A stretch of 64,000 bases of DNA from Micavibrio sp. UBA2705 (GCA_002354205.1 DELD01000002.1:15496-79495); one strand, 5' to 3'. Shown: positions 6,469 through 62,756, counted from the stretch's first letter. Notes: generated by a model not told the origin, from the sequence alone. A program made the numbers and translations.

Positions 6469-7533
6469 ATGAAACGCATTATTGTAAGTCTTGACGGTAC
6501 ATGGCAAACGGCTGAACAGGATAATCCGACAAATATTAAACTGATTCACGATTGTTTTATGCCTTACGACAAAAACGGCGTAGAGCAACTTACAAAGCAT
6601 TTTTCCGGCATCGGCACACAAGGCAATAAATTAAAACGGCTTTTTAACGGTATCACAGGTGGCAGCCTCGAAGACCGTATTAAAGAAGCTTATAAATTTA
6701 TCGTCGAAAATTACAATAATGGTGATGAAATTATCCTTTCAGGCTTTAGTCGCGGCGCGTTTACCGCACGTACATTAAACGGCATGATGTATAAAGCGGG
6801 CATTATCGACCCTAGCAAAGTTGACGACCTCGACCAAGCCATTGAAGAGGCATATGATTTTTATCAAACAAATCACCGTCCAAACAGCAAACACGGCGTA
6901 GATTTCCGTGAAAAACATGCCATGGCTGAGCGCCCTAAAACAGTTCTGGCTTGCTTTGATACAGTCGGTTCACTGGGCATCCCCCCGCAGCTGACAACAT
7001 TTGCCAATCTTTTTAATAAAGACCACGCATTCCATGATACACGGGTCAACAGAAACACAACCCATGCCTTTCATATTGCCGCGATTAATGAACACCGTAA
7101 AAACTTTCAACTCACCCCAATGCGCGCATCTGAAAATGCCGACACACAGGTGACGCAGCTTTGGTGCGTTGGTAACCACAGCGCAATTGGCGGCGGCAGT
7201 GACCATAACAGCAATAAGCCGCTTTCCGATATTGCAGGTTTAAAAATGATTGAACTGCTGGAAAAACAATGCAATGTCGGGTTTAGCGCCGCCAAAATAC
7301 AAGAAAAATTTGCGCCTAATGCCCTCGCAACCCCCCATAGCGATTTTAAACAAAAGGGCTTTATTTGGAAAATTTCCGGCCTCAACACGCAGCGTATCAT
7401 TAGCATGAGTGAGCAGTTCGCTGATTCTGTCGGGGAGCGCTGGAAAAACAATCAAAACTACCGCCCCTCGCAGCTCAATAAATTTTCTGACAATGCAGGA
7501 AATTTCCCTCTCTGCCCATATCCAAAGCCTTAA
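6469..7533 (+). CDS. DUF2235 alpha/beta hydrolase (Tle1-like phospholipase fold)
   Basis: N-terminus 'IIVSLDGTWQ' and nucleophile elbow 'GFSRGAFTAR', as in the DUF2235 family. 354 aa. Confidence 0.7.
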   Translation: MKRIIVSLDGTWQTAEQDNPTNIKLIHDCFMPYDKNGVEQLTKHFSGIGTQGNKLKRLFNGITGGSLEDRIKEAYKFIVENYNNGDEIILSGFSRGAFTARTLNGMMYKAGIIDPSKVDDLDQAIEEAYDFYQTNHRPNSKHGVDFREKHAMAERPKTVLACFDTVGSLGIPPQLTTFANLFNKDHAFHDTRVNRNTTHAFHIAAINEHRKNFQLTPMRASENADTQVTQLWCVGNHSAIGGGSDHNSNKPLSDIAGLKMIELLEKQCNVGFSAAKIQEKFAPNALATPHSDFKQKGFIWKISGLNTQRIISMSEQFADSVGERWKNNQNYRPSQLNKFSDNAGNFPLCPYPKP

Positions 7534-7602: not shown

Positions 7603-10200
7603 ATGAAAGATTCTGATACAGATAGAGAAGGCATAGACCTCGACAACCTGCCCCCTGACATCGTGCGCACGAAATATTGGCACGCGATTGATAATGAACG
7701 CGTCCAATGCGATTTATGCCCGCGTGCGTGCAAAATGAAACAGGGGCAGCGCGGCCTATGCTTTATTCGCCAGAACCTTGGCGGCGAAGTCGTGATGACC
7801 AGCTATGGGCGTTCGTCAGGGTTTTGCATTGACCCTATTGAAAAGAAACCCCTCAACCACTTCCTACCCGGCACGCCTGTCTTATCGCTTGGCACTGCCG
7901 GGTGTAATTTATCGTGTAATTTCTGCCAAAATTGGGATATTTCCAAAGCCCGCGCCATGGATAACATACAGGACCTCGCAAGCCCTGAGGCCATCGCCGA
8001 CGCTGCGGTGCGTACAGGCTGTAAATCGGTTGCTTTCACCTATAACGACCCTGTGATTTTCCATGAATATGCGATTGATATTGCGCAGGCCTGTCATGAA
8101 CGCGATATTAAAACCGTTGCCGTCACAGCGGGTTATGTTTGCGATGCACCGCGCAAAGAGTTTTACGCCCATATGGACGCTGCAAATGTTGATTTAAAAG
8201 CATTCTCACAGGATTTTTACTGGAAACAAACCAAGAGCGAGCTGCGCCCTGTGCTAGATACGCTTGAATATTTAAAACATGAAACCAATGTTTGGTTTGA
8301 AATCACGACCCTGCTCATTCCCGATGAGAACGATTCCAGCCAAGAAATCACCGAACAATGCGAATGGATTGTAAAGCACCTTGGTACAGATGTGCCGATC
8401 CATTTCAGCGCGTTTCACCCTGATTATCGGATGAAGGATAAAAACCACACCCCGCCTGCGACCCTAAAACGCGCGCGGCAAATTGCGCTCGATCACGGGC
8501 TTGAATACGTCTATACAGGCAATATTCATGACCCAATAGGCGACACTACATATTGCCCCAAATGCCAAGCCGAGCTGATTAAACGCGACTGGTATCAAAT
8601 TAATGGCTGGGGTTTAACCGATGATGGATCATGCAGCCATTGCGGTTATAAAATCGCAGGGCGCTTTGATGGCAAGCATGGCGATTGGGGGCGCAAGCGC
8701 GTGCCGGTGCGCATCGGCGCAGAAAATGTCACCATCGCACCGCCCGTGAGTAAACGTAAAGAACCACCAAAGCGCCAACATAATATGCCGCCAGAAATGG
8801 TTAGAAGGAGATATGAAATGCCCAAAGATTCCAATTTATCGATGCTTGATCCTCAAGTTGCTGGTGCATTTTACCCCAATGACCCATCAAGACTTTCTGT
8901 CATGGTTGATAACATCATCAATAATGCCCGCGCCCCTGCCATGCAGCCAAAGGCGATTATTGCGCCTCATGCAGGATATATTTATTCAGGCGCAATTGCA
9001 GGCAATGCCTATAAAACCGTGGCGCATCGTGCCAATAAAATCAAGAAAATCGTCCTGTTCGGCCCGCCGCACCGCGCCCCCGTGCGCGGTATCTGCGTCC
9101 CCAAATATGACGCATTACTGACTCCGCTTGGCCCAGTGAGCATCAATAAAGAAGGCATTGAAACGCTTAAAACCCTCGACTATGTCTATGCCGACAACGC
9201 GCCCTTTAAAGGCGAACATGACCTTGAAGTGCAGCTGCCCTTTATTCAGCGCGTCTTTGAACATGCCCAGATTATTCCCGCCCTGATCGGTCAGACAACG
9301 CCCGAGCAAGTCGCCGATGCGCTGAAGCTGTTATGGGGCGACGAAGAAACGCTGATTATCATTTCATCAGACCTCAGCCATTTTGAGGAATATAAAGACA
9401 CATATAAACTTGATAATGCCGCAGCAATTGCAATCGAGACCCTTAACCCCGCGGGGCTGAACGATCAGCAAGCCTGCGGACGCCACGCGATACGCGGCCT
9501 GTTATTAGAAGCGCAGCGCCGCCAAATGCGCGCCACCACTATTGATCTGCGTAATAGCGGCGACACCAAAGGTGATAAAAGCCGCTGCGTTGGTTATGGC
9601 GCGTTTGTTTTTGAATATAATGATGGCATTAAAACCGACCCGCGCCTTGCTGAGAATATGCTCACGGTAGCCAAAACCATGGTGATTGAAACTGCCAAAC
9701 AAAATGGCCGTAAGGCGCAAATTCAGCTCAAAGGCGTGCCTCGACCCTTAATGAACCAGCGCGGCGTCTTCGTCACTATTAACAAGAAAGGCCAGCTACG
9801 CGGCTGCTACGGCTCATTCATCCCGAATAAACCTCTCATCCTTGATATTGCGGAGCAGTCATATAATGCAGGGTTTAACGACCCACGTTTTGCGCCGCTT
9901 AAAACCGAGGAATTAAAAGATTGTGATATTGGCCTGTCTATCCTTTCCATCCCAGGGCCATTAGAGTTCACAGATGAAGCGGATTTATTAAGCAAGATCC
10001 AGCCCAATATTGACGGACTTATTTTAAAAGATGGGCGCCACCAAGGCTTGTTCCTGCCGCAAGTATGGGAAAGCCTCACAACGCCAAAAGACTTCTTAAA
10101 CGGCCTTAAACGCAAAGCTGGATTGCCGGAAGATCACTGGTCAGAAAGCGTCACTATTCAACGCTTCACGGCTGAAAAAATTGGCCCTGTGAAGTTTTAA
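7603..10200 (+). CDS. Triple-fusion AmmeMemoRadiSam protein: radical SAM enzyme + Memo-like (protein B) + AMMECR1 (protein A)
   Basis: Radical SAM domain, aa 1-~370: 'CDLCPRAC', radical SAM 'CNLSCNFCQNW', C-terminal 'CPKC..CSHCG'. Memo domain, aa ~418-680: 'APHAGYIYSG', 'GPPH', 'EHDLEVQLPF', 'ISSDLSH', 'ACG'. AMMECR1 domain, aa ~690-865: 'LRGCYGSF', 'NDPRFAPL', 'GLFLPQVWE'. Approximate domain spans: 7603-8715, 8854-9645, 9670-10200. Confidence 0.85.
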   Translation: MKDSDTDREGIDLDNLPPDIVRTKYWHAIDNERVQCDLCPRACKMKQGQRGLCFIRQNLGGEVVMTSYGRSSGFCIDPIEKKPLNHFLPGTPVLSLGTAGCNLSCNFCQNWDISKARAMDNIQDLASPEAIADAAVRTGCKSVAFTYNDPVIFHEYAIDIAQACHERDIKTVAVTAGYVCDAPRKEFYAHMDAANVDLKAFSQDFYWKQTKSELRPVLDTLEYLKHETNVWFEITTLLIPDENDSSQEITEQCEWIVKHLGTDVPIHFSAFHPDYRMKDKNHTPPATLKRARQIALDHGLEYVYTGNIHDPIGDTTYCPKCQAELIKRDWYQINGWGLTDDGSCSHCGYKIAGRFDGKHGDWGRKRVPVRIGAENVTIAPPVSKRKEPPKRQHNMPPEMVRRRYEMPKDSNLSMLDPQVAGAFYPNDPSRLSVMVDNIINNARAPAMQPKAIIAPHAGYIYSGAIAGNAYKTVAHRANKIKKIVLFGPPHRAPVRGICVPKYDALLTPLGPVSINKEGIETLKTLDYVYADNAPFKGEHDLEVQLPFIQRVFEHAQIIPALIGQTTPEQVADALKLLWGDEETLIIISSDLSHFEEYKDTYKLDNAAAIAIETLNPAGLNDQQACGRHAIRGLLLEAQRRQMRATTIDLRNSGDTKGDKSRCVGYGAFVFEYNDGIKTDPRLAENMLTVAKTMVIETAKQNGRKAQIQLKGVPRPLMNQRGVFVTINKKGQLRGCYGSFIPNKPLILDIAEQSYNAGFNDPRFAPLKTEELKDCDIGLSILSIPGPLEFTDEADLLSKIQPNIDGLILKDGRHQGLFLPQVWESLTTPKDFLNGLKRKAGLPEDHWSESVTIQRFTAEKIGPVKF

Positions 10201-17144: not shown

Positions 17145-17699
17145 TTACGCCGAAGCGACTTTCTTGACGTTCTTATCTGCATCAACAAAATCATCAATTT
17201 TGAATTTACGTGAACGCGTTGTTGTTTGATACGCGATTTGACCATGTTCTGGGCAATACGGCAAACCTGTTTCAGAATGCGCACCACAAAAACCAAATTC
17301 TGCACTTTTCGGATCACCAATAGGCCAGCGACACATACGCTCACTCAACTCAGACAGAGGCAAGCGCTGCCCTTTATTCTTAATAATCTCAACATCCTGT
17401 TTAGACGGTGCGTTAACAGATGTTACCGTACGTTTTGGTGCAGGTTTCGGCTTTTCTACAGCTTCGGCAGCCTTGGCTTTGACGCGCGGTTTCGCGTTAC
17501 TTTGCTCTTTCGCCACTTTAACAGTCTTTTTGCTTGCCTGTATCGGAGACGCACGACCAGAAAGTTTCAAACGGTGTGCCTTGCCAATCACAGCATTACG
17601 CGTAACGCCTTCACCTAATTCCTTGGCAATTTCCGCAGCGGTTTTTCCATCGCCCCACATCTTTGTTAATACAGATACACGTTCGTCAGTCCAAGCCAT
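17145..17699 (-). CDS. gcrA: Cell-cycle transcriptional regulator GcrA
   Basis: 'MAWTDERVSVLTKMWGDGKTAAEIAKELG..VTRNAVIGKAHRL' plus C-terminal 'CRWPIGDP....FCG......PYCPEH'. ATG at 17699 has a GGGAGA RBS. The longer ORF-track start at 17768 is rejected. Confidence 0.9.
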   Translation of the reverse strand: MAWTDERVSVLTKMWGDGKTAAEIAKELGEGVTRNAVIGKAHRLKLSGRASPIQASKKTVKVAKEQSNAKPRVKAKAAEAVEKPKPAPKRTVTSVNAPSKQDVEIIKNKGQRLPLSELSERMCRWPIGDPKSAEFGFCGAHSETGLPYCPEHGQIAYQTTTRSRKFKIDDFVDADKNVKKVASA

Positions 17700-17891
17700 C
17701 AAAATATCTCCCACACTTTGGTTGAGCTTTAAAAACAAAGGATTCACAACAGCTTGGCTGTAAATCACTCCTCGAATAAATCTTAGTTACTCAATAATTG
17801 TCGCTAATGAAGAAGACCATATCACACTCACGAATCGGTGGGATAGATTCTCGAAGTAAAAAACTTGCCTTATGCACACAAAAACTTTCTT

Positions 17892-47300: not shown

Positions 47301-48359
47301 TTAAAAACGGTAACCTACAGATATTGCGCCAAATAAGGACGGTTCATCTTGCCCATCAAATTCTTTTGAGCGCCAATTCAAGCTATAAGAAATCTGCGTC
47401 GCGCCGTAAGAAAGGCTAATTCCAGCGCTCGCATCCGCAACAAAGGTTTTCTTATCAACTGATGGGCTATCCTGAAAACTATTGCCATCAAGGAATATGT
47501 TGCGCGCAAAAGCACGCCCATCAAGGCCAATAAAAGCTGACCACGCAAATTCATTATCAGGCACAGCAAAAAAACCATTTCCCGGTATAGATGGACGCAC
47601 CCGCATCGGCGGTGATTGCCATTGATAGCGCTGCGGCGTTAATTGCAGCGTCACCCCGCCAGAGCCATAAGTATAAATATTGCCCAGCGAAAAACCAGCA
47701 TGGGGGCTAAGGCGTAAATGCAAATCATGCATATCCACGGCATATGCTTCTGGCCAATTGCGCTGCCACGATAAAATCGCGCCGACTTCATTTTTAAGCT
47801 GATAATCCCAGCCTGAAGGGTCATCCGCGCCGACCAAATCATGCACGGTTTCCTGCACTTCTTCGCCCATAGACCACGGGCCAATAACCCCCAATGTAAG
47901 CTCTAAGGAATCGATTGTGTTTTTATTGACGCTTGAAAACCCTGCGCTGCCATATAAAAACCCCGCATAAGGGCGATCTGACGGGTTTGGCGTACGCGCC
48001 GTAATATCGTCAGGCGTATATAAATTTTGTCCGACCGAATACGCAACAGATGTCGTTTCATTAAAAGTAAAAAACGGCAACATGCCATCAAGCGCAGCGA
48101 TAATATCTGGCGACTTCATCCCGACATCAAAATAAGTCAGCCGCGTGCCATGAGTATAGTTTTGGTCACTACGTGATGCAAACATATCGTTCTCAAGCGT
48201 CAATGTCAGAAAATGGTTATCACTATCAAGCAACCCTTGCGGGATTCTCTCTTGAAAGCTTGGCTTTTCTAAGGTTGAAATCTGTGCTTGCGCATATGCT
48301 GCGCCGCTCGCAAGCGCCGCCAAGACTACAATAAAATGAAAAAATACAACTCTACGCAC
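47301..48359 (-). CDS. Outer-membrane LpxR/DUF2219 family protein (putative lipid A deacylase)
   Basis: Signal peptide. 'TLENDMFASRSDQNYTHGTRLTY' matches the family N-terminal motif. C-terminal 'ISVGYRF' is a beta-barrel signature. Confidence 0.6.
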   Translation of the reverse strand: MRRVVFFHFIVVLAALASGAAYAQAQISTLEKPSFQERIPQGLLDSDNHFLTLTLENDMFASRSDQNYTHGTRLTYFDVGMKSPDIIAALDGMLPFFTFNETTSVAYSVGQNLYTPDDITARTPNPSDRPYAGFLYGSAGFSSVNKNTIDSLELTLGVIGPWSMGEEVQETVHDLVGADDPSGWDYQLKNEVGAILSWQRNWPEAYAVDMHDLHLRLSPHAGFSLGNIYTYGSGGVTLQLTPQRYQWQSPPMRVRPSIPGNGFFAVPDNEFAWSAFIGLDGRAFARNIFLDGNSFQDSPSVDKKTFVADASAGISLSYGATQISYSLNWRSKEFDGQDEPSLFGAISVGYRF

Positions 48360-52794: not shown

Positions 52795-53844
52795 ATGCAG
52801 GGAAAATTTAATAATAAAACAAAGCATACAAAACCAACACAAATCGGCATCGCCTTGCAAGGCGGCGGGTCTTATGGTGCTTACGCGAAAGGCGCGCTGA
52901 AAGCTTTACTGCGCTCTGAATTTAACGCCCGAACAAATATAGCCGCCATTACGGGAACAAGCGCCGGCGCATTAAATGGTGCGATGCTCGCTTATGGCCT
53001 CAATAAAGGCGGTGCAGATGACGCCATAAAGCATCTTGATGGCCTCTGGGATGATGTGAAACTCACAGGCAGCGCCATGTCATTTTGGCACAATCTCGGC
53101 CCTTTGACGAATTTATCATGGCCCAATATTCCCCAACATAAAATGATGATGTTTTCATTTGCCCAAGCCGCCCTGCCGCAAGGCATCGCGATCAATGCCC
53201 TAAAAGATAGTGTAAACGCCCAAATTGATGATTTCGATATATTAAGGAATGGAAAGACAGCCCTGTTTGTCAATGCCGTTAAGCACAACAAGGTCACACA
53301 GCAACGTGAACATACCGTTTTCCATGGCAATACACTTAACGCTGAGAGTATTATCGCATCAGGCGCATTAGAAAGCCTCGGCGGCATTGAAATTAACGGC
53401 GACACATATTATGACGGCGCATATTGGCGTAATCCGTGTTTTGCCGATATTAAGCGTGCCAATATCTCAGATTTATTCGTCATTACCCTGCAAGCGAAGC
53501 CAACGCCCCCTATTGTCGCGCAACATCAAGATGATGCACGCACCAAAGGACACAGAAAAATTGGCTATGAACTTATTACACATGAAATTCATGGACATTT
53601 GGCATATATACATCACACCAACCCCGCATTAAACCTGCACGTCATAAGCCTAGAGCTTGACCCCAGATGGAATGATACCAGCCGCATGAACACTGACCCA
53701 ACATGGTTAAACCATTTAGAAGACCTTGGGAAAAAAGACGCACAGCAATGGCTGGCGGTGCATTTAGATGATCTTGGAAAAAAATCCACCTATAAACCAG
53801 ATCATGGGTCTATAGGTGGTACAAATTTATCAATAAAACCTTAA
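52795..53844 (+). CDS. Patatin-like phospholipase
   Basis: Oxyanion 'LQGGGSYGAY', nucleophile 'GTSAGA' (GxSxG), catalytic Asp 'YYDGAYW' (DGA). Confidence 0.85.
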   Translation: MQGKFNNKTKHTKPTQIGIALQGGGSYGAYAKGALKALLRSEFNARTNIAAITGTSAGALNGAMLAYGLNKGGADDAIKHLDGLWDDVKLTGSAMSFWHNLGPLTNLSWPNIPQHKMMMFSFAQAALPQGIAINALKDSVNAQIDDFDILRNGKTALFVNAVKHNKVTQQREHTVFHGNTLNAESIIASGALESLGGIEINGDTYYDGAYWRNPCFADIKRANISDLFVITLQAKPTPPIVAQHQDDARTKGHRKIGYELITHEIHGHLAYIHHTNPALNLHVISLELDPRWNDTSRMNTDPTWLNHLEDLGKKDAQQWLAVHLDDLGKKSTYKPDHGSIGGTNLSIKP

Positions 53845-53852
53845 GCGCGGCT

Positions 53853-53999
53853 TTACGGCGCAGGCTTTGCATTTATCCCTGCTTTATATACCGTATTTTG
53901 CGCGCCATGCGCATAGATAGGACTGCGTTGCAGCGCCGGATTTGTAAAAGACGCACATAAATTGCGCCCTAAATTGGCCAGTTTGTTTTGTGTACTCAT
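53853..53999 (-). CDS. Possible 48-aa small ORF, translationally coupled (ATGA) to the upstream 123-aa ORF
   Basis: The ATG at 53999 overlaps the TGA at 53996-53998. Sequence MSTQNKLANLGRNLCASFTNPALQRSPIYAHGAQNTVYKAGINAKPAP. Below the ORF-track size cut-off and supported only by the coupling geometry. Confidence 0.2.
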   Translation of the reverse strand: MSTQNKLANLGRNLCASFTNPALQRSPIYAHGAQNTVYKAGINAKPAP

Positions 54000-54367
54000 T
54001 CTAACATCCCTTCATCTATGGATAATACGGCGTTTTGCTTTGATACGCCCTGTTCCCCTAATTCATAAAATACCATTTGCGTTTGTCCACGCTCTGTTTT
54101 TTCTGGCTTAATGTGGAAATGACTTTGTGCCCCCGTCAATTCCCCAAGATCCATAATATAATCATTATCTTCGTTAAGCAGCGCAACAAGGTTCATCACC
54201 TTTTTCTCGCTCAGCTGAATGTCTTCTTGTGCATCAACAACCATGTAATCCCCAACAGGGTCATAACATTCATGCGTGCTGCGCTTTAAAATCAAAAAGC
54301 CGCGCTCACTGATCGGGTTACGTTCATAACGAAACGTTCTTTGTTCTGCTGGCCGATTAAAATCCAT
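53996..54367 (-). CDS. Hypothetical protein (123 aa)
   Basis: Open frame convergent with the patatin gene. No motif recognised. Confidence 0.4.
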   Translation of the reverse strand: MDFNRPAEQRTFRYERNPISERGFLILKRSTHECYDPVGDYMVVDAQEDIQLSEKKVMNLVALLNEDNDYIMDLGELTGAQSHFHIKPEKTERGQTQMVFYELGEQGVSKQNAVLSIDEGMLE

Positions 54368-54482: not shown

Positions 54483-55793
54483 ATGTCTGTAGCCCCAAAG
54501 TCAGTAGATCAAGACTATAAAGTTAAAGATATAAACCTTGCTGAAGCTGGCAGAAAACAAATTGACCTCGCACAGGACGAAATGCCTGGCTTGATGTCTA
54601 TCCGCGCTGAATACGCCAAAGAACAGCCATTACAAGGCGCGCGCATCGTGGGCTGCCTACACATGACAGTACAAACAGCTGTGTTAATCGAAACATTAAC
54701 ATCACTTGGCGCTGAAGTGCGCTGGTCATCATGTAACATCTTCTCAACACAGGACGAAGCTGCCGCTGCTATTGCCGCGACGGGCGTCCCTGTTTTTGCA
54801 TGGAAAGGCCAAACCGAAGAAGAAGGCGAATGGTGTATCCACCAAACAATCAAAGGCCCAAATGGCTGGGTACCAAATATGATTTTGGATGATGGCGGTG
54901 ACCTTACCGCAATTATGCATAACGATTACCCTGAACTTATGGACGCCGTCAAAGGCATTTCAGAAGAAACTACAACCGGCGTCATGTTCCTTAAAAAAAT
55001 GGAAGAAGCAGGCAAGTTGAAAGTCCCTGCAATTAACGTCAACGATTCTGTAACCAAGTCAAAGTTTGACAATAAATATGGCTGCCGTGAATCATTGGTT
55101 GATGCGATCCGCCGTGCAACAGATGTTATGCTTGCCGGTAAAGTTGCCGCAGTATGTGGTTATGGTGATGTCGGTAAGGGCTCTGCGCAGTCATTAGCAT
55201 CACAGGGCGTACGCGTTATGGTCACTGAAATTGACCCTATCTGTGCGCTTCAAGCATGTATGGACGGCTTTGAAGTTGTCACAATGGAAGACGCTGCGCC
55301 ACGCGCTGACATCTTTGTCACGACAACGGGTAATAAAGACATTATCACCGTTGACCATATGCGTGATATGAAAGACCGCGCGATTGTCTGTAACATTGGC
55401 CACTTTGACAATGAAATTCAGGTTGAGCCAACACGCAACATGAAATGGACAAATATTAAGCCACAAGTTGACGAAATTGAATTCCCAAGCGGCAAGCGTA
55501 TTATCTTGCTTGCAGAAGGCCGCCTTGTAAACTTAGGCTGCGCAACGGGTCACCCAAGCTTTGTTATGTCAGCGTCATTCACAAACCAGACTTTGGCACA
55601 AATCGAACTTTGGAAAAATAGCGCGAACTACGAAAACAAAGTTTACGTCCTGCCAAAGCACCTTGATGAAAAAGTTGCAGCCCTTCACCTCGATAAGCTT
55701 GGCGCGAAGCTTACAGTGTTGAGCCAAGACCAAGCGGACTATATTGACGTTGATGTTAAAGGCCCGTTCAAGGGCGATGCTTACCGTTACTAA
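54483..55793 (+). CDS. ahcY: Adenosylhomocysteinase
   Basis: '[16 protein letters not shown]', NAD-binding '[14 protein letters not shown]', 'GHFDNEI', C-terminal 'KGDAYRY'. Confidence 0.97.
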
Positions 55794-55820: not shown

Positions 55821-55857
55821 AAACTCGCCGCTGTCATAAGCGGCGAGTTTTCTTTTG
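55821..55857 (+). terminator. Rho-independent terminator after ahcY
   Basis: 11-bp stem aaactcgccgc / gcggcgagttt, followed by a T-run. Confidence 0.85.
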
Positions 55858-56005
55858 GGCTAAGTCATTGAAACAAGATTCAAAATACAAAGTAAATATG
55901 CAAAAAATACCTTGCTTTCTATTTCCATATTATGGTAAAAACATTCAATCAAAAAATATATATAGGCAAACTATCCCTTAAACGGATAACAAGGACGGTA
56001 ATAAA

Positions 56006-59000
56006 ATGGCTAATCAAGATAACAAAGCAACGTTAACTTTAGACACAGCAGATGCGCGCAGCAAAATCTCAGTGCTCGCAGAGAAATCAAGCCCAAGCAC
56101 ATCAGATGTTGATGAAGCCATCAAGCTGTTTGAAATGGCACTTACTGATGCTTATACCGTCGCCATGAATAATCACGTTTACACAGAAAAGCTGCAAGAT
56201 GTCATGAAAAAGAACCATGATGCATTGGTTGACATGACAATCAAAGCCAAAGGCGATATCACAGCAGATGATCTGAAAGCCTATACAGATCAAGCCGTGC
56301 CGCAGCAAGACCCGAATGCGAAAACAACGCTTATAGATATTGATCACGCACAAATGCTGTTCATCGGTGATTTGACCCGATATAATGACAGCACAAGCGG
56401 ATCCCCCAAAAGCTTCACTGCACGCCGCGCGGAATCAGAAGCAAAGCGCTACGAATCTAAACTGGATCAAAACGGCAAGAAAAGAGATATAGAAAAAGAA
56501 AAGCTCGCCAATGATGATAGCGATTTTTACCGCTATTACCTCTATCAAGCAAAAATTGATGATAAGCCTGGCACTTTCTCACGCAGCGGCACACGCCAAG
56601 AATTTATTGCCCATATTGATGAACTTGCCGGACGCTGCATCCCAAAAGCAAACCAATATGCCAAAACATACATCCAAAAAGCGCAAGATGCGACGCAAGC
56701 CCTTGTGACAAAATACCAAGGCGTTGGCGCAGTATCAACATTGCTTGAAACCACTGTAAAAAACACACTTTCAGCAGAACAAAAAGATTCATTCAAATTA
56801 AACCACCGCGCTTTTTACGAGGCGATGGTCTCATCTGCTGTGCAAGCTTTTGTCAAAAGCGGCGAAATCAAAGCGACAAAAGTCCTGTTCACAGATAAAA
56901 TGTCAAATAACCGTCCGTTCATTATCAATGCATTAAACCTAGCCCTGACCGATGCCAAGCAAATTGACCTCAGTCAAGAATCTTATATTGTTGGCGGCTT
57001 GCTTGCTGATACACTTGGTAATGATTATACGGTTGAGCTTTTAAAAACGGCGATTGAATATAATGAAGCCGCAGGCAAGAAAATCAACTTACCTGAATTT
57101 GAAGCGACGATTAAACGTTTCAATGATTACATCCAGATCATTGAAAAAGATCCGCTTTTCCAAACACATGATGAACGTAATGAGCCGACAAAAACCCTCA
57201 TTAACTATAATAAAACCGTCGCAACATTTGCTGAGCTGTCATCATATACAGTTGATGGCATTAATGAATTCTTAGGCGGTGACGCCCTTGCCACAGTTAT
57301 CACACCAATAAAAGAAGAGCTTTTCGCGAGCCGTTATGGCGCGGACATGAACTTCCTTGCTTATTTTATCGACCATGTCAAAAAATCTGCGTCGCATAAA
57401 AACCTGCCTGCGGCGATTAATGAAGCAGCCGCAATTGACCAAGTCACAAAAGCGACAAGCCCCGCATTTGCACAAAAACTTGTGCTTGAAATCAGCAAAA
57501 AATCAAACGACCCTGCACTAAAAGCACGCATGAAAGACATTGCACCATTGCTTGATAATTACAGCGAAGGCGCTGCCGTCAATTACGCGAAAAGCGCACA
57601 TGCCTTAAAAGAGGCCGTCTTGCGTAAACGCCCTGATGTTGTTTTAAAACTCACTAGCCAAGATTACGTCCAAGGTATTTTCACTGACGAGCGCATTAAA
57701 CTTATGCTGCGCAACACAGAGTATAAAAACGAAAACTCAAAACCAATCAAAGCGCTTTATGATTATGCACAAAAAGATAGCGTTGCTTTGGCTGAAACCC
57801 TTTCAGGTCTTGCTGGCATGAGCACATCTTCTGATGAGCAGCAAAGCTACATCAAAGCGCTACATGCCCTTGCAGAAGGCAATAATAAGGACTTCCAGAC
57901 CCAGCTTGAAAACTATGTTGGCGTTCTCAAAAACCATGACGGCGCGACATTAATGAACCTTGCGAAAACGCAGCAAATTGTTGCGTCAAAATTCAATCCT
58001 GAGAACACAGAATCGCTCAACAGTTTCCTTGCATCACCTGAGCTTGATAGCCTGCCAGAAGACGTACAAACAATGGCGATTAACGAAGATATCACTAGTC
58101 AAATGCTGATCGGTATGCTGCGCGAAAGCGGCGACAGCGTCATTAAACAGGCGCAGAGCTTTGATAAAATTTCAACGCTGATCAAAAATGAAACAACAAC
58201 CCAGCGTGCCTTCGCCGCCATTATTGAAAAAGCAGAAAGCAAGCCTGAAACAGCACAGCGTTTTAACGACTATGTTACCGTGCTTAGCGCAGAAAATGGC
58301 CGTGAAATCCTGAGCGATTTCGCACAAAGCCGCGAAGATTTCTACGCAGCGCTTAGCAATAAAAATGCTGAAAAATTAGCGACCCTAACGCTAAAAACCA
58401 CAACAGGCGCTTCAAGCGACAACAAAGCTCTTGATGCGCAGCTCAGCGCCCTTGTCCTTACAGATGGCAATTTAAAATCATCTATTGATGTAATGCTCAG
58501 CGCCGCAGGAAACGGAACAACGCAAAAAGTAAAATATCTCGCGCTGATCGCCACAACAAACCACGCAGATTCTGTGTTCGAACATGTATTGGCAAGCGCA
58601 CAGAGTGATAATGAGAAAAACCGCCTCGCAGCGCTGATTAACCTTATCCAAGGCGAAGACGCGAATGCGCCGCAAGCTTACGCGGCGCTTGATGAAAACA
58701 TCACTGCTTTGCTTAAAAACGGCGACACAAATGGCCTGCGTGAGTTTTTGGCCTCTGATGCCTTTGCACAATCAGACTTGCCTGAGAGCGCTGTACAGAG
58801 CCTTGTCGCGCAACCATTAGATAACGGCAAAAACATCCCAGAAATGGTGCTGGCCTACAAAGCTGATGATGCAGAACAGCTTGCACAGAACCTAAGCGCA
58901 ATTTCTGGCTATATCTCTAACGAGACCCGCCTTGAAATGCTGCAAAAGCAGGACAGTAATACTGGCTTTGACGTTTTCACCACATTAATGCACGGCAAAG

Positions 59001-62000
59001 ATATTTACGCGCAGGCTGATACGGTAATTACTTTCAGCACGTTAATGGACAAAGACCATGGCGGACGCAACACGATCCTTCAAGGCTACGTCAATAATCT
59101 ACGTGAACAAAACGCGGCAAACGGCGTTGAAGAAGACACGAACGAGATCAAACAATTCCTCACCATGGTGAATATTGTCGCGACAACCTTCAGCGATGAT
59201 GAGCTTGAAGATGATCTCAAAGCGAAACAAATTGAAAAAATCCAAGGCTTGCTTGGCGCAATCAAAAACATCGCAGACACCCATGATGCGAGCGCTCTTA
59301 CCAGCTTCCTTAAATCAGACACATATCAAAATAATGTTGATGAATATTCAGTCTTTAGCCCTGCAAACCTTTTAAAGCAGTACCCAAGCGCTGAAAACAA
59401 CGCTATCGACATTATGTTTGCCGCGACAAATAATGATCCGCAAAAAGAACTCGCTTTCTTTGCTGAGATTGAAGAAATTTTCGCTGGCGACCATATTACA
59501 ATGGAATTTTACGAAGACATCATCGCCAAACACGCCCAAGACGAAGCCAAATGCGCCCGCATCCAAGGCTACGTTAGCGCCGCTGTCGATGGCAACTTAA
59601 CCGCCGCCGTTAACATCGCCGCATTAAACGTGATGATTGACGACGCCGCGCAAAAACCAAGCATGAAAAAGTTCAAAGCAATTGTTGATAGCGCAGAATT
59701 TCAAGCACTGGATGAAACAAACCGTGCCGCGATCATCAGCGCCGCGCCACAAGGCAAAGAAGACGGCCTATCCATCGCGCAGCAAATTATCCGTCTTGGC
59801 ACAAAGTCACATGAAAAAATGGCTGAAAACATCCAATATATTGGTGCGCAATTTGAAAACCAGACAACCACTGTTGAGATCCTTTACAGCGCCGCAGAAG
59901 TCATTGAAACTGATGCAAACAAAGCGCAATACATTGATTACGTGAAATTATCCGTTAATAACGAGAGCGAAGCGCTTAACGGTCTTGCAAAAGTTCAGGC
60001 GACAATCGCCAAAGCGGTAAAAGACAATGACATTGAGGCATTGCAAGGCTTAATCGCCGACCAAAGCTTAAAGGACCTTGGCACAGAGCGCCGTGAGAAA
60101 ATTTTATCGCAGCCACTTATTGGCGATAAAACATTGCTCAGCTTACTGGCTGAAAATGCCAACGGCGATATGGACGCGGAAATTAAAGCCTTCATCAACA
60201 CGTCAAAATCAATTGATGACCCAGAGCTTTTCAACCGCCTTGCAAATGCAACAATCGAGAATGCAGAGAATGCGGCGATGCGTACACGTTTTAGCGCCTA
60301 TGCGGAAATGATTAACAATAATGACGAAGAAGAAATCTATGCCAAGCTTGGCGCAACCAAAGCGATTAACGCCGCTTTAGAAAAACCAAACAAATTAAGC
60401 ATAGCGGCTCTAGCAAGCGATGAAGCTTTCACAAGCATCACGCAGTACGAAGCACACGCATTGTTTAAAAAACCCGCACTTGGCGAACAAAGCTTGTTTG
60501 CAGCGGCGCTTGGCAACGCAAAAACACCAAAAGACCACGCGCAGGCGGTACGTAGCCTTGCAGAGCTTTTCACCGATAGAGATTATACAAATGACCTCAT
60601 CTCACATTATGCGCATAGCATCGACGAGAGCGCACACTCAGCGTTGGTCATTGAGCGCTTAGACCTTTTGACGCGTATGGCATATAGTGAGGACGTCAGC
60701 CCAGAGCTAGTTACAAAACTCGGCACAGTCTTCACAGAAATTGACAAAGCCAAAGAAAAAGGCAGCCAAATTGCGCTGCGCAATATTTTATCATCTGCGG
60801 CCTATAAAGCACTTCCGGCCGGTTACCAAGAACGCTTTACCCAACAATCAGGCGAAGATAACATCCTGACAACATTACTCAACATGGCTAAAAATGACCC
60901 TGTGCAAGAAACAGAGCTTATTGCCGATATGATCGCCGCAACGCAAGGTGATGAAGGCGCAGCCTATAAACAAATCAGCACTTTGATAGACCGCAGCAAT
61001 AGCGACACACAGCGCGCACGCCTTGAAGATTACCGCGCCAGCCTCTATGCGAAAACATTAGAGGTAGACGGCAAAACCGTTGATCCTGCGCAAATTTCAA
61101 TGATTATCCCGCATGATCGTTGGTATTACCAAATCATCGGCAAGGATGGCGACACTTTACGCCGCCTTGACGAAGACGACAAAGCGCTTAAAAAATTACG
61201 TTTCTCTGATGCGATGCTCGCAGTTGGCGGCGGTAAGTATTACGCCAAGGAAGAAATTGGCTATGTCAGCTATAACGCGAAAAATCGTGAATTAGAAGTC
61301 TTCCACGTCACGCATACAGATGAAAAGCCTGTTTTCTCAACCCGCGAAATGGACAGCTATGACGCGGAAGAAATTATCAATAATTTGTGCAAGACATCTG
61401 GCTTTGTGACATTGCCAATAGCAGGCAAGCTCACAGGGTTGAATATCAACCGTATTCAAGGCGTGCATCACCTTAATGATAAGAACACTCTGAACTTAGA
61501 AACCATCACGGGCAGCCTTGCTTTGAAAAAAGTAAGCCGCGAAGCAGCGCGCCCATTACTGCGCGGTTTAGTACAAAGTGAAGCCTTTTTCCAAGATGAT
61601 GAAAACACGTTGTTTATCCGCAAAGATACGGCGCAAATCATCAGCCACAATGAAAAGAAGAGCACATTATTCGTCAAAGGACAGCACAAAAGCTTCACCT
61701 TGAAAAATGTAGACTTAGACGCTGGTTCAGACATCATTCTACGTGCAGAGCAAAACAGCGCCTTCACACAAGATGATAAAGACACAATCATCGCCAAAAA
61801 TGCTTTAGCCATGATTGGTTATGATGAAAACAAAGATGAATTGTTGTTGGCGATTTCTAAAGATGAGAAATTCACCAAATCTGTCTATAGCGCAAGCGAA
61901 GCACAGAATATCGTCACCGAATATGTTGAAAGCGGTAAATTCATCTGGAGAGATAGCCTTTCTGCAAGCAATATAAACCGCGTTGACAGCATTGAAATTG

Positions 62001-62629
62001 ACCCCGTGCTTGACAGCTACACCTTGTCACTCATCACAGGCGCAACCCTGTCTATTGACAATGTTTCCGCTGAAAACCTTGCGATATTCAAAAAAGCATT
62101 AGAACGCAACGCCAATATTCACAAGCTAAGCGATACCGCATATAATGTGCAGCAAGACAGCGCCGTCAAGCCATTGCTTGTGCCAAAACCATCACTAACA
62201 ACGCAGTTTAATGCTGCAGCGATTATTGATGAACTTGTCGCAAAATCAAGCATAGAGCGCGTACAATCCGCGATCGTAGCCTCTGCAAACTGGTTAGATA
62301 CCATGCATAGCGACGAAATGGATAATGATGGCGAAAGCGCGAAGATGCAGACACTCGGTGCATTACTGCTCAACGCTTATACAGCCCATGCTGATATTCC
62401 TGAAAATCTCGGCAAGCGCGCCGCAAATGATGCGCCAAAAACAAAAACGGCCAAAGCCGCCGTTAAGAAAGACGCATTATCAGCGCTGCAAGCTTCATTT
62501 AACCGCGCCGCACAAAGTGACGCGCCAAACGAAGCAAGCATAACAAAACAAATCGCCAATGATATTGCCAGCAACAACCCAGTGATGCAGCATTACCAAG
62601 AAGCGCTTGATCCGCTTGCAATAAAATAA
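56006..62629 (+). CDS. Giant (2207 aa) acidic repeat protein of unknown function
   Basis: One uninterrupted frame with an AAGGA RBS. No signal peptide or TM helix. About eleven ~120-aa helical repeats (aa ~370-1740) and five ~60-aa modules (aa ~1749-2050). Has its own terminator. Confidence 0.85.
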   Translation: MANQDNKATLTLDTADARSKISVLAEKSSPSTSDVDEAIKLFEMALTDAYTVAMNNHVYTEKLQDVMKKNHDALVDMTIKAKGDITADDLKAYTDQAVPQQDPNAKTTLIDIDHAQMLFIGDLTRYNDSTSGSPKSFTARRAESEAKRYESKLDQNGKKRDIEKEKLANDDSDFYRYYLYQAKIDDKPGTFSRSGTRQEFIAHIDELAGRCIPKANQYAKTYIQKAQDATQALVTKYQGVGAVSTLLETTVKNTLSAEQKDSFKLNHRAFYEAMVSSAVQAFVKSGEIKATKVLFTDKMSNNRPFIINALNLALTDAKQIDLSQESYIVGGLLADTLGNDYTVELLKTAIEYNEAAGKKINLPEFEATIKRFNDYIQIIEKDPLFQTHDERNEPTKTLINYNKTVATFAELSSYTVDGINEFLGGDALATVITPIKEELFASRYGADMNFLAYFIDHVKKSASHKNLPAAINEAAAIDQVTKATSPAFAQKLVLEISKKSNDPALKARMKDIAPLLDNYSEGAAVNYAKSAHALKEAVLRKRPDVVLKLTSQDYVQGIFTDERIKLMLRNTEYKNENSKPIKALYDYAQKDSVALAETLSGLAGMSTSSDEQQSYIKALHALAEGNNKDFQTQLENYVGVLKNHDGATLMNLAKTQQIVASKFNPENTESLNSFLASPELDSLPEDVQTMAINEDITSQMLIGMLRESGDSVIKQAQSFDKISTLIKNETTTQRAFAAIIEKAESKPETAQRFNDYVTVLSAENGREILSDFAQSREDFYAALSNKNAEKLATLTLKTTTGASSDNKALDAQLSALVLTDGNLKSSIDVMLSAAGNGTTQKVKYLALIATTNHADSVFEHVLASAQSDNEKNRLAALINLIQGEDANAPQAYAALDENITALLKNGDTNGLREFLASDAFAQSDLPESAVQSLVAQPLDNGKNIPEMVLAYKADDAEQLAQNLSAISGYISNETRLEMLQKQDSNTGFDVFTTLMHGKDIYAQADTVITFSTLMDKDHGGRNTILQGYVNNLREQNAANGVEEDTNEIKQFLTMVNIVATTFSDDELEDDLKAKQIEKIQGLLGAIKNIADTHDASALTSFLKSDTYQNNVDEYSVFSPANLLKQYPSAENNAIDIMFAATNNDPQKELAFFAEIEEIFAGDHITMEFYEDIIAKHAQDEAKCARIQGYVSAAVDGNLTAAVNIAALNVMIDDAAQKPSMKKFKAIVDSAEFQALDETNRAAIISAAPQGKEDGLSIAQQIIRLGTKSHEKMAENIQYIGAQFENQTTTVEILYSAAEVIETDANKAQYIDYVKLSVNNESEALNGLAKVQATIAKAVKDNDIEALQGLIADQSLKDLGTERREKILSQPLIGDKTLLSLLAENANGDMDAEIKAFINTSKSIDDPELFNRLANATIENAENAAMRTRFSAYAEMINNNDEEEIYAKLGATKAINAALEKPNKLSIAALASDEAFTSITQYEAHALFKKPALGEQSLFAAALGNAKTPKDHAQAVRSLAELFTDRDYTNDLISHYAHSIDESAHSALVIERLDLLTRMAYSEDVSPELVTKLGTVFTEIDKAKEKGSQIALRNILSSAAYKALPAGYQERFTQQSGEDNILTTLLNMAKNDPVQETELIADMIAATQGDEGAAYKQISTLIDRSNSDTQRARLEDYRASLYAKTLEVDGKTVDPAQISMIIPHDRWYYQIIGKDGDTLRRLDEDDKALKKLRFSDAMLAVGGGKYYAKEEIGYVSYNAKNRELEVFHVTHTDEKPVFSTREMDSYDAEEIINNLCKTSGFVTLPIAGKLTGLNINRIQGVHHLNDKNTLNLETITGSLALKKVSREAARPLLRGLVQSEAFFQDDENTLFIRKDTAQIISHNEKKSTLFVKGQHKSFTLKNVDLDAGSDIILRAEQNSAFTQDDKDTIIAKNALAMIGYDENKDELLLAISKDEKFTKSVYSASEAQNIVTEYVESGKFIWRDSLSASNINRVDSIEIDPVLDSYTLSLITGATLSIDNVSAENLAIFKKALERNANIHKLSDTAYNVQQDSAVKPLLVPKPSLTTQFNAAAIIDELVAKSSIERVQSAIVASANWLDTMHSDEMDNDGESAKMQTLGALLLNAYTAHADIPENLGKRAANDAPKTKTAKAAVKKDALSALQASFNRAAQSDAPNEASITKQIANDIASNNPVMQHYQEALDPLAIK

Positions 62630-62666: not shown

Positions 62667-62718
62667 AAGCTGTGTCGACAGGAGCGCATTCTCCTTAAAG
62701 GCACAGCTTTTTCTTTTC
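62667..62718 (+). terminator. Rho-independent terminator after the giant gene
   Basis: Outer stem aagctgtg (62667-62674) / cacagctt (62702-62709). Inner stem aggag/ctcct. Followed by TTTCTTTT. Confidence 0.6.
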
Positions 62719-62756
62719 TGGCGTGGAACTTTAAATAAAACAGTAAGGCGCGTCCT

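What the first reader, a model, noticed from the sequence alone, without database searches (positions are those of the whole stretch)
56006..62629. Orphan 2207-aa giant repeat protein with no recognisable enzymatic, export or anchoring motif
This is by far the largest gene in the window. It sits as a stand-alone unit between ahcY and an rRNA methyltransferase, with the ahcY terminator upstream and its own terminator downstream.

The product is acidic and looks predominantly helical. I found no signal peptide, TM segment, autotransporter/RTX/Ig-like signature, nucleotide-binding motif or protease motif.

It has four parts:
- a unique N-terminal ~370 aa;
- an array of ~120-aa helical repeats;
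- five ~60-aa modules;
- a Lys/Ala-rich C-terminal tail ('KRAANDAPKTKTAKAAVKKDALSAL...').

Giant repeat proteins with unstructured C-terminal tails are typical of secreted effectors and scaffolds in host-associated or predatory bacteria. That role is inference only.
Basis: partly seen in the sequence, partly recalled or inferred. Interest (0 to 1): 0.7.

Follow-up and report, generated by a model that had tools for sequence, protein, structure and literature searches.

The report
Orphan giant solenoid protein, LytTR-like tail
This is a real, conserved gene for a 2207-residue protein with no detectable relatives outside one rare clade of marine Micavibrio-like bacteria; it looks like a non-enzymatic scaffold made of helical repeats followed by small beta modules, but whether it works inside or outside the cell is unresolved.

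Summary
ORF 56006-62629 (+) encodes a 2207-aa acidic protein (pI about 4.7). It has no Sec signal, TM segment, RTX, Walker A, HExxH or LPxTG motif, and its own RBS and terminators.

It is a real gene. Eight lineages keep it full length (33-84% identity), always between ahcY and a TRAM/U5 methyltransferase. dN/dS is about 0.12-0.13 in all four regions.

It is a true orphan. Pfam, NCBIfam, PDB sequences and an exhaustive phmmer scan of 1.84 billion representative proteins found only this family.

Refined anatomy:
- helical head (1-398);
- ten old, divergent repeats of about 122 aa, each about 8 helices (399-1682; eleven in two relatives);
- six, not five, beta5-alpha units of about 59 aa (1683-2035);
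- a conserved C-terminal helical segment containing a basic Lys/Ala linker.

In predicted structures, stretches of about 100-110 residues (roughly two units) resemble the LytTR DNA-binding fold (TM 0.52-0.58, marginal E-values). Sequence tests do not confirm this.

My best reading, at confidence 0.4, is a non-enzymatic multi-site scaffold that stays in the cell. Export as a prey-contact protein remains a live rival: Cys and Trp are depleted 7-9 fold, and the gene evolves faster than its housekeeping neighbours. This is an undescribed family of moderate interest.

The parts
55829..55855 (+). Intrinsic terminator of ahcY (hairpin plus T-run), which separates ahcY from the giant gene.
   Evidence: 6-bp stem, 4 GC pairs, then AGTTTTCTTT; sequence read.
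55991..55995 (+). Shine-Dalgarno-like AAGGA, 10 nt upstream of the ATG at 56006.
   Evidence: Read directly from the sequence.
56006..62629 (+). Complete ORF of 2207 codons plus stop. It is the founding member of an undescribed family.
   Evidence: Orthologues found. dN/dS is 0.12-0.13. GC3 is native, 0.453 vs 0.465 +/- 0.039.
56006..57199 (+). N-terminal all-helical head (aa 1-398) with two very long helices (about 38 and 56 aa). Its last helix carries the repeat-end motif (KRFNDYIQII), so it may hold degenerate repeat copies.
   Evidence: AF2 chimera model, pLDDT about 80. hhalign gives weak partial matches at 246-276 and 360-381. No Pfam hit.
57200..61051 (+). Array of ten ~122-aa helical repeats, R1-R10 (aa 399-1682). 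Starts are at about aa 399, 519, 649, 780, 892, 1077, 1202, 1325, 1445 and 1570. Each repeat has about 8 helices and the motif L..FL.S..F..L......IL..P..G...LL.LLA.NA.GD ... R.RF..Y.
   Evidence: AF2 of R7-R8 gives pLDDT about 80-87. Foldseek returns only generic alpha-solenoids. There is no DNA-level tandem repeat. P0012 and P0015 carry one extra 115-aa unit at aa 816.
58943..59233 (+). Conserved insertion/extension within or after R5 (aa 980-1076). This is the most conserved stretch of the protein: 63% identity to the divergent relatives, against an average of about 45%.
   Evidence: The repeat HMM matches R5 only over HMM positions 4-88.
61052..62110 (+). Six beta5-alpha units of about 59 aa, U0-U5 (aa 1683-1735, 1736-1797, 1798-1858, 1859-1917, 1918-1976, 1977-2035). 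Stretches of about 100-110 residues (roughly two units) resemble the LytTR fold. U2 is basic in all relatives.
   Evidence: Unit alignment. AF2 pLDDT 65-87. LytTR matches. Charges.
62111..62626 (+). C-terminal segment (aa 2036-2207), made of a conserved PKPSLTTQFNAA linker, a helical region at 2067-2135, and then the parts listed below.
   Evidence: Conservation. AF2 predicts helices, but with pLDDT below 50.
62411..62476 (+). Basic Lys/Ala-rich linker (aa 2136-2157). Net charge is +2 to +5 in all eight family members.
62477..62626 (+). Conserved terminal motifs (aa 2158-2207): ALS.LQ.SFN.A, then a variable spacer, then AND(I/L)...N.(V/I)MQ.YQ.AL(D/N)..(A/K)(I/V/C)K. This is a candidate docking peptide or non-Sec export signal.
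   Evidence: Invariant positions are S2159, L2161, F2165, N2166, A2168, N2191, M2194, Q2195, Y2197, Q2198, L2201 and K2207. Alignment.
62667..62721 (+). Terminator hairpin (10-bp outer stem, 5-bp inner stem) followed by TTTTTCTTTTCT. It lies between the convergent giant gene and the methyltransferase gene.
   Evidence: MFE -27.7 kcal/mol, z = -2.98; sequence.

Best explanation
The gene encodes a soluble, acidic, non-enzymatic scaffold/adaptor protein. It is specific to one marine clade of Micavibrio-like Alphaproteobacteria and is inherited vertically at a fixed chromosomal site.

Shown:
- It is a real gene under purifying selection along its whole length.
- It has no detectable homologue outside its own family of about eight lineages.
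- It has no Sec/Tat signal, no TM segment and no catalytic or nucleotide-binding motif.
- It consists of a helical head, ten ancient ~122-aa helical repeats, six ~59-aa beta5-alpha units and a conserved C-terminal segment with a basic linker.
- Each repeat is conserved position by position among orthologues. The copies are far more similar to their orthologous copies than to each other.

Inferred:
- The helical repeats stack into an alpha-solenoid rod whose individually conserved units each offer a distinct docking surface for partners.
- The beta units pair into LytTR-like domains. Together with the basic unit U2 and the basic Lys/Ala linker, they attach the acidic rod to a specific ligand, possibly nucleic acid or another polyanion.
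- The invariant C-terminal motif docks a partner.
- I favour an intracellular location because no export signal, secretion gene or calcium-binding repeat is present.
For: Real gene:
- The ORF is intact in 8 lineages at 33-84% identity with nearly constant length, 2203-2318 aa.
- dN/dS is 0.12-0.13 overall, and region values range from 0.06 to 0.18 across head, repeats, units and C-terminus.
- GC and GC3 are native. An RBS and terminators are present.

Vertical inheritance:
- The neighbourhood (AKR, two small ORFs, ahcY, giant, TRAM/U5 methyltransferase; with a patatin gene in all examined loci except L004, the most divergent) holds in all loci, even at 41% identity.

Orphan:
- Pfam, NCBIfam and PDB sequence searches found nothing.
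- An exhaustive phmmer scan of 1.84e9 representative proteins found 5 hits, all from the same family.

No export or anchor signals.

Repeats:
-. There is no DNA repeat, so the duplications are ancient.
- Gap fraction is about 0 and per-repeat identity is 21-60% to the divergent orthologues, whereas copies within the protein barely align by BLAST.

Structure:
- AF2 gives mean pLDDT 71.9, with the head and R7-R8 all-helical at about 80-87 and the units as beta5-alpha at 65-87.
- Foldseek places the helical part among TPR/HEAT/ARM-type solenoids. These matches are generic and not significant.
- LytTR domains are the only consistent high-probability class for the beta part, seen in two independent models and two libraries.
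- The charge pattern (acidic rod, basic U2, basic linker) is conserved in all eight members.

Context: no secretion genes lie in the window or in related flanks.
Against: - No partner, ligand or localisation is known; 'scaffold' is a structural inference.
- Cys (0.14% vs 0.94%) and Trp (0.14% vs 1.23%) are 7-9 fold depleted relative to the other window ORFs, and this depletion holds across the family. That is typical of exported proteins of Gram-negative bacteria.
- The gene has the highest dN/dS of the seven genes compared. Its dN is 2-8 times that of the five housekeeping or regulatory neighbours and about equal to that of the periplasmic solute-binding protein. This suits interaction or surface proteins.
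- The LytTR resemblance is marginal: E = 0.01-0.3 and TM 0.52-0.58. It is not confirmed by Pfam or by unit-HMM searches. Only a weak in-register signal exists.
- The unit array is net acidic.
- The AF2 model was made on a three-piece chimera with an 8-sequence alignment. Inter-domain geometry is therefore unknown (pTM 0.36).
Confidence: 0.4

Rival explanations
1. The protein is an exported prey- or host-contact protein. It would be secreted without a Sec signal, by a type I system using the conserved C-terminus or by another one-step system, and would act outside the cell as an adhesin or effector during epibiotic predation.
For: - It is giant and acidic (pI 4.7), with no signal peptide and very low Cys and Trp content.
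- The extreme C-terminus is conserved, ending in an acidic residue followed by hydrophobic ones (LD.LAIK).
- It has the highest dN/dS among the seven genes compared, with dN about equal to the periplasmic solute-binding protein.
- The lineage is labelled Micavibrio.
- Cultured M. aeruginosavorus has a complete T1SS and several giant T1SS substrates but no T3SS or T4SS (PMC3189940).
- Two phospholipase-type genes lie in the window: patatin and a Tle1-like DUF2235 protein.
Against: - There is no GGxGxD/RTX repeat, unlike all six Micavibrio T1SS substrates described in PMC3189940.
- No ABC/MFP/TolC genes lie in the window or in the 10-kb flanks of four related loci.
- The fold is about 75% alpha-helical solenoid, not the Ig-like/cadherin beta repeats of known giant T1SS adhesins.
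- Length and repeat number are almost fixed, and the gene sits among housekeeping genes rather than in an island.
- No homologue exists in cultured Micavibrio.
Confidence: 0.27
2. The protein is a membrane- or pole-associated cytoskeletal ring or ruler, analogous to the Agrobacterium growth-pole-ring protein GPR. In this reading a giant helical protein oligomerises to organise polar growth or an attachment organelle.
For: - The size class and helical content are similar: GPR has 2115 aa with 1700 aa of helices, and its C terminus is essential (PMC8262873).
- The host is an alphaproteobacterium (GcrA in the window).
- Length is nearly constant across divergent orthologues.
- The C-terminus is conserved.
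Against: - There are no TM segments, whereas GPR has two N-terminal ones (PMC8262873).
- There is no PF01442 apolipoprotein match.
- No sequence similarity to any Rhizobiales protein was found in the exhaustive search.
- GPR has no beta-module array.
Confidence: 0.1
3. The ORF is not a functional gene: either a chance long ORF, a decaying pseudogene, or an assembly artefact.
For: No annotation, name or Pfam domain exists in any source.
Against: - The identical protein appears on at least 10 contigs read from independent ENA, Logan and NCBI samples.
- It is intact in eight lineages.
- dN/dS is 0.12-0.13 with dS about 0.9-1.1.
- An RBS and terminators are present.
Confidence: 0.01

Closest known systems
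LytTR DNA-binding domain (Pfam PF04397; AgrA, ComE, BtsR)
   Same: - Stretches of about 100-110 residues of the ~59-aa unit array (roughly two units) superpose on AgrA/ComE LytTR domains in two independent AF2 models: probability 0.92-1.0, TM (target) 0.52-0.58 for the isolated AgrA LytTR chains (lower, 0.25-0.30, when normalised by full-length ComE), rmsd 4-5 A over about 100-110 columns.
- They also superpose on a phage 'LytTr DNA-binding domain' protein.
- By my reading, the order of secondary-structure elements, (beta5-alpha) x 2, is the same. The motif F..D....hN...I aligns with the LytTR core F.R.HRS..VN...I (register, plus my own inspection).
   Different: - No Pfam LytTR hit at any threshold.
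- The unit HMM does not find PDB LytTR sequences.
- Scores against BtsR and AgrA are at or near shuffle level.
- Foldseek E-values are only 0.01-0.3.
- Here there are six contiguous half-units (three tandem domains) at the end of a 1700-aa helical protein, not one domain behind a receiver domain.
- The array is net acidic, apart from unit U2.
Alpha-solenoid repeat proteins (TPR, HEAT/ARM, Sel1; e.g. LGN, transportin-3, condensin Ycg1, APC/C TPR subunits)
   Same: Long arrays of stacked helices act as multi-partner docking platforms. These are the top Foldseek matches for the helical part.
   Different: - Matches are not significant (E >= 0.01, TM <= 0.2).
- The repeat unit is about 122 aa with about 8 helices, not 34-47 aa with 2-3 helices.
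- No Pfam repeat family matches, even when each repeat is scanned alone.
[quoted passage not shown]
   Same: It is an alphaproteobacterial, roughly 2100-2200-aa, predominantly alpha-helical structural protein with a functionally important C-terminus, and it is lineage-restricted (PMC8262873).
   Different: GPR has two N-terminal TM anchors and continuous PF01442 apolipoprotein-like matches. This protein has neither, shows no sequence similarity to GPR, and carries a beta-module array that GPR lacks.
Giant type I secretion substrates (RTX adhesins and haemolysin-related proteins, e.g. M. aeruginosavorus GMV0107, 2892 aa)
   Same: They are very large, acidic, Cys-poor and lack an N-terminal signal. 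The information-bearing end is the C-terminus, and they occur in the predatory genus Micavibrio to which a related MAG (L001) is assigned (PMC3189940).
   Different: This protein has no GGxGxD repeats, no VWA, lectin or Ig-like domains, and no adjacent TolC/HlyB/HlyD. It is helical rather than beta-rich and is not in a genomic island.

Membership tests
RTX / type I secretion substrates | Tandem calcium-binding nonapeptide repeats (GGxGxD) upstream of the C-terminal signal. | tested here: not met
   A regex scan of the 2207 aa found none. No Pfam HemolysinCabind hit.
RTX / type I secretion substrates | Genetic linkage to an ABC transporter, membrane fusion protein or TolC. | tested here: not met
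   Pfam scans of 36 window ORFs and called genes in the 10-kb flanks of L002, L004, L007 and L010 show none. The rest of the genome was not available.
RTX / type I secretion substrates | A functional C-terminal secretion signal in the last ~60 residues. | not testable with these tools
   The C-terminus is conserved and ends LD.LAIK, but T1SS signals have no reliable sequence consensus.
LytTR domain (PF04397) | Significant match to the family's sequence profile. | tested here: not met
   - No hit at E <= 5-10 for the whole protein, for 7 relatives, or for isolated double units.
- The unit profile finds no LytTR chain in the PDB.
- The unit and double-unit HMMs score 2.7-3.5 bits at best against BtsR and AgrA.
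LytTR domain (PF04397) | The ten-stranded elongated beta fold of AgrA_C. | tested here: inconclusive
   The Foldseek top class in three searches gives TM (target) 0.52-0.58, rmsd 4.0-4.9 A and probability 0.97-1.0 for isolated LytTR domains, but E = 0.012-0.3 and only 9-15% identity. The query is a predicted model with pLDDT 65-87.
LytTR domain (PF04397) | Sequence-specific DNA binding through loop residues. | not testable with these tools
   Only the charge could be examined: U2 and the Lys/Ala linker are basic in all members, while the rest is acidic.
TPR / HEAT / ARM / ankyrin / Sel1 repeat families | Match to the repeat profile, with a unit length of 33-47 aa. | tested here: not met
   No Pfam hit, even per repeat at E <= 10. 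The unit length is about 122 aa.
Apolipoprotein-like GPR family (PF01442 with N-terminal TM anchors) | PF01442 matches over most of the length, plus two N-terminal TM helices. | tested here: not met
   There is no PF01442 hit; only ApoLp-III appears, at E = 1.8. The maximum KD19 of 1.32 means no TM segment.
Autotransporter / Ig-like giant adhesins | Sec signal, beta-barrel translocator, or Big/cadherin/FN3 repeats. | tested here: not met
   The N-terminus is hydrophilic, there are no Pfam domains, and the predicted structure is helical with small beta5-alpha units.

The most novel reading that the evidence does not exclude
The protein is a new kind of bacterial intracellular organiser. In this reading an acidic ~1700-aa alpha-solenoid rod is tethered to DNA (or another polyanion) by three tandem LytTR-like domains plus a histone-tail-like Lys/Ala linker. 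It would recruit many partners to a chromosomal or polar site in a predatory alphaproteobacterium. A corollary is that the six evenly spaced 59-aa units would expose the LytTR fold as a duplication of a beta5-alpha half-unit.
Probability: 0.12. Interest if true: 0.7.

Novelty: new variant of a known kind. Interest (0 to 1): 0.42.

Why it matters
If the reading is right, a rare marine lineage related to epibiotic predators keeps, at a fixed chromosomal site and under purifying selection, a 240-kDa protein built from two repeat types that no database describes.

- It would add a new repeat family of about 122 aa to the alpha-solenoid world.
- It would provide the first example of LytTR-like modules outside small transcription factors.
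- Deciding whether it is an internal organiser or an exported prey-contact protein would bear on how uncultured Micavibrio-like bacteria live.

In practice it is one more well-documented giant orphan. Its value is as a defined target (domain boundaries, alignments, models) rather than as an answer.

Tried and rejected
- BLASTP self-comparison gave only weak repeat signals. HMM and hhalign analysis were needed to see the repeats.
- The search for homologous proteins with the N-terminal alignment A2 returned nothing, not even the query's own orthologues. I treat this as a tool limitation, not as evidence.
The window chimera alone was accepted.
- The partial-row alignment A7 for AF2 was misaligned by MAFFT and was discarded. 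It was replaced by the chimera plus full-length rows, A8.
- The first AF2 run, on the C-terminal 524 aa with 4 close sequences, was poor (pLDDT 44).
- Pfam scans of the whole protein, of seven relatives, of each repeat and of double units found only noise: Acylphosphatase, FliG_N, NifW, DUF3911 and the like, all below the curated cut-offs and none recurring across relatives.
- PDB profile searches with the whole family and with the unit profile found nothing meaningful.
- An ankyrin-like reading of the 'G.KTLL.LLAENANGD' motif was considered and dropped because no Ank hit appeared.
- A Sac7d/chromo-like reading of single units was considered. It ranked only 41st, with TM 0.45.
- Recent repeat expansion is rejected: TRF finds no DNA repeats.
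- Horizontal acquisition is rejected: GC3 is native and synteny is conserved.

Full report
**1. Observation**

The ORF at 56006-62629 (+) is present as described, with an ATG start and 2207 codons. It is the largest gene in the window; the next largest is 904 aa.

It follows ahcY (54483-55793; PF05221/PF00670). AhcY ends with a hairpin and T-run at 55829-55855. An AAGGA lies 10 nt before the ATG.

Downstream is a convergent PF05958 methyltransferase gene (TRAM plus U5-methyltransferase in relatives). Between the two genes, a 10-bp-stem hairpin at 62667-62709 is followed by a U-run (z = -2.98).

GC (0.449) and GC3 (0.453) match the other window genes (GC3 0.465 +/- 0.039).

**2. Real gene**

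The identical protein occurs on at least 10 independent contigs. Full-length relatives form about eight lineages:
- 79-84% identity: P0002-P0004.
- 41-48% identity to the window protein in the full-length alignment: P0011, P0012, P0015, P0013 (33-42% in the phmmer search with the chimeric query).

Nei-Gojobori dN/dS against two close relatives is 0.12-0.13. The four regions taken separately range from 0.06 to 0.18.

All examined loci keep the order AKR, two small ORFs, ahcY, giant, TRAM/U5 methyltransferase, even at 41% identity; a patatin gene precedes the small ORFs in all of them except L004. The gene is therefore vertically inherited and not part of an island.

It is nevertheless among the two fastest-evolving of the seven genes compared, and it has the highest dN/dS. 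Against L002:

| Gene | dN |
|---|---|
| giant | 0.115 |
| ahcY | 0.015 |
| AKR | 0.019 |
| methyltransferase | 0.024 |
| histidine kinase | 0.058 |
| periplasmic binding protein | 0.129 |

**3. Organism**

The only hit in 185,579 species genomes is a MAG titled 'uncultured Micavibrio sp.'. A scan of 241 million metagenome records gave six loci, several of them from Tara Oceans and other marine metagenome records.

The window itself carries GcrA, Era, RNase III, LepB, GyrB, FtsH and ThrC. This is a core alphaproteobacterial chromosome region.

**4. Orphan status**

- Pfam, NCBIfam and PDB-sequence searches of the protein gave nothing.
- Scanning seven relatives against Pfam gave no recurrent family.
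- A whole-family profile against PDB sequences gave nothing.
- Each repeat and each double unit scanned alone gave only sub-threshold noise.
- An exhaustive phmmer scan of 1.84 billion cluster representatives found five proteins, all members of this family and all with the same architecture. The query was a 1157-aa chimera of the head, two repeats and the C-terminal 524 aa.

No paralogue and no partial homologue of any of the four parts exists in that library at E <= 0.001.

**5. Anatomy**

*Head (1-398).* It is all-helical with pLDDT about 80 and has two very long helices.

*Helical repeats.*
- An HMM from the four clearest copies (1199-1688) finds an independent copy at 649-763 (iE 4.5e-11), and weaker ones at 893-975 and 1086-1191.
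- Iteration and profile-profile self-alignment give in-register matches at every expected position. R8 vs R3 reaches 93% probability (E = 2.5e-7).
- This gives ten units of about 122 aa between 399 and 1682.
- P0012 and P0015 carry one extra 115-aa unit at position 816.
- There is no DNA-level repeat. Each unit aligns without gaps to its orthologous unit, while paralogous units barely align. The array is therefore ancient and each unit is individually constrained.
- AF2 models R7-R8 as about 8 helices each, at pLDDT 80-87.
- The most conserved stretch of the whole protein is 950-1200, including a ~97-aa extension of R5.

*Beta units.*
- There are six, not five, at 1683-2035. Each is about 59 aa with five short strands and one 12-14-aa helix.

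*C-terminus (2036-2207).*
- It contains a conserved linker and predicted helices (pLDDT below 50).
- A Lys/Ala linker at 2136-2157 is basic (+2 to +5) in all members.
- A terminal motif is invariant across the family.

**6. Physicochemical checks**

- pI is about 4.7 and net charge about -86.
- The maximum hydropathy window of 1.32 means no TM segment, and the N-terminus is hydrophilic.
- There is no GGxGxD, Walker A, HExxH or LPxTG motif.
- Cys is 0.14% and Trp 0.14%, against 0.94% and 1.23% in the other 36 window ORFs. The depletion is shared by all relatives.
- The solenoid is acidic in every repeat, and unit U2 is basic in every relative.

**7. Fold comparison**

For the helical part, Foldseek returns only generic alpha-solenoids: LGN TPR, transportin-3, Ycg1, APC/C subunits and designed repeat proteins. 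All have E >= 0.01 and TM <= 0.2.

For the beta part, LytTR is the only consistent, high-probability class:
- In the chimera model, AgrA/ComE score probability 0.98-1.0 and TM (target) 0.52-0.57.
- In the independent C-terminal model, LytTR chains take the top nine ranks, with E = 0.012-0.036, TM up to 0.58 and rmsd 4.2-4.4 A over about 106 columns.
- In the viral library, a protein named 'LytTr DNA-binding domain' scores probability 1.0, TM 0.52 and rmsd 4.0 A.

About 106 aligned columns correspond to roughly two units, so the six units would make three LytTR-like domains.

Sequence tests do not confirm homology:
- There is no Pfam LytTR hit.
- The unit profile finds no LytTR chain in the PDB.
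- The unit HMM scores BtsR (read from the E. coli record) and AgrA (recalled from memory, so only a lead) no better than shuffles.
- A double-unit HMM beats 400 of 400 shuffles for BtsR, but only 375 of 400 for AgrA.
- hhalign aligns F..D....hN...I with the LytTR core LLRCHRQYLVN...I in the expected register, at only 2% probability.

I therefore call the fold 'LytTR-like, unconfirmed'.

**8. Mechanism**

The protein has no catalytic signature. It consists of individually conserved repeats, has near-constant length and carries a conserved charge pattern. These point to a non-enzymatic multi-site scaffold.

In this reading the solenoid units are docking surfaces. The beta domains, basic U2 and the basic linker form an attachment module. 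The invariant C-terminal motif is a docking or export peptide.

Where the protein sits is the open point.
- For an intracellular location: no Sec/Tat signal, no TM segment, no RTX, no secretion genes within reach, the alpha-solenoid and LytTR-like folds, and the housekeeping context.
- For export: Cys and Trp depletion, acidity, relatively fast evolution, a conserved extreme C-terminus, and a predatory lineage whose cultured member relies on a T1SS (PMC3189940).

I put the intracellular scaffold at about 0.4, export at about 0.27, and a GPR-like polar ring (PMC8262873) at about 0.1. The remainder is unassigned.

**9. Comparison and novelty**

The protein is not a member of any tested family; see the membership table. 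It resembles alpha-solenoid platforms in its logic. It resembles LytTR in the predicted fold of its beta modules. It resembles GPR and T1SS giants only in size and composition.

It is an undescribed family that combines known structural classes in an undescribed way, so I rate it a new variant of a known kind. Interest is moderate: the documentation is solid, but function is unresolved and giant orphans are not rare in metagenomes.

**10. Caveats**

- The main AF2 model is a three-piece chimera (1-398 | 1202-1444 | 1684-2207) with only eight sequences. Domain-level secondary structure is usable, but inter-domain packing is not (pTM 0.36).
- Foldseek E-values for ~100-residue domains are marginal.
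- The rest of the genome could not be surveyed.

Noticed in passing
window 7603-10200 (+): An 865-aa ORF fuses radical SAM (PF04055), Memo (PF01875) and AMMECR1 (PF01871) in a single polypeptide. As far as I know these three are usually separate genes of the 'AmmeMemoRadiSam' system, so this looks like a three-way fusion.
   Followed up: no
window 6469-7533 (+): A stand-alone protein with a T6SS Tle1-like phospholipase catalytic domain (DUF2235; PF09994, E = 2.4e-62). No T6SS genes lie nearby in the window.
   Followed up: no
window 52795-54367: A patatin-like phospholipase (52795-53844) is followed by two small minus-strand ORFs with no Pfam match: 123 aa at 53996-54367, plus a ~48-aa one called in related loci. 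The two small ORFs are conserved in synteny next to ahcY in all related loci; the 123-aa one is 71-95% identical. The patatin gene is present in all examined loci except L004.
   Followed up: partly
L002 18456-26612; L004 18664-26612; L007 11598-12624: Content just beyond the TRAM/U5 methyltransferase differs between relatives and looks like integrated or defence DNA.
- L002: OLD-like TOPRIM/AAA_21, HTH, AAA_25 and a DnaG zinc ribbon.
- L004: a serine recombinase and S24 peptidase.
- L007, which carries the identical giant protein: GmrSD_N.
The site downstream of the methyltransferase seems to be an insertion hotspot. The window ends before it.
   Followed up: no
P0012 and P0015, insertion at reference aa 816 (window about 58451): Two relatives carry one additional 115-aa helical unit inside R4. 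This is the only repeat-number change in the family. R4 is also the least conserved unit, at 21% identity to the divergent members.
   Followed up: partly
window 17145-17768 (-): A GcrA cell-cycle regulator (PF07750, E = 5.5e-45) marks the organism as an alphaproteobacterium. The NCBI taxonomy dump, however, still files the genus Micavibrio under Bdellovibrionota.
   Followed up: partly
window 47301-48359 (-): An LpxR lipid A 3'-O-deacylase homologue (PF09982, E = 1.3e-92) is conserved in the same neighbourhood in related loci L002 and L010. It implies lipid A remodelling in this lineage.
   Followed up: no
tool behaviour: the search for homologous proteins, when queried with a 4-sequence alignment of the N-terminal 400 aa, returned no hit at all, not even the orthologues that made up the alignment. 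Negative results from alignment queries in that tool should not be trusted.
   Followed up: no
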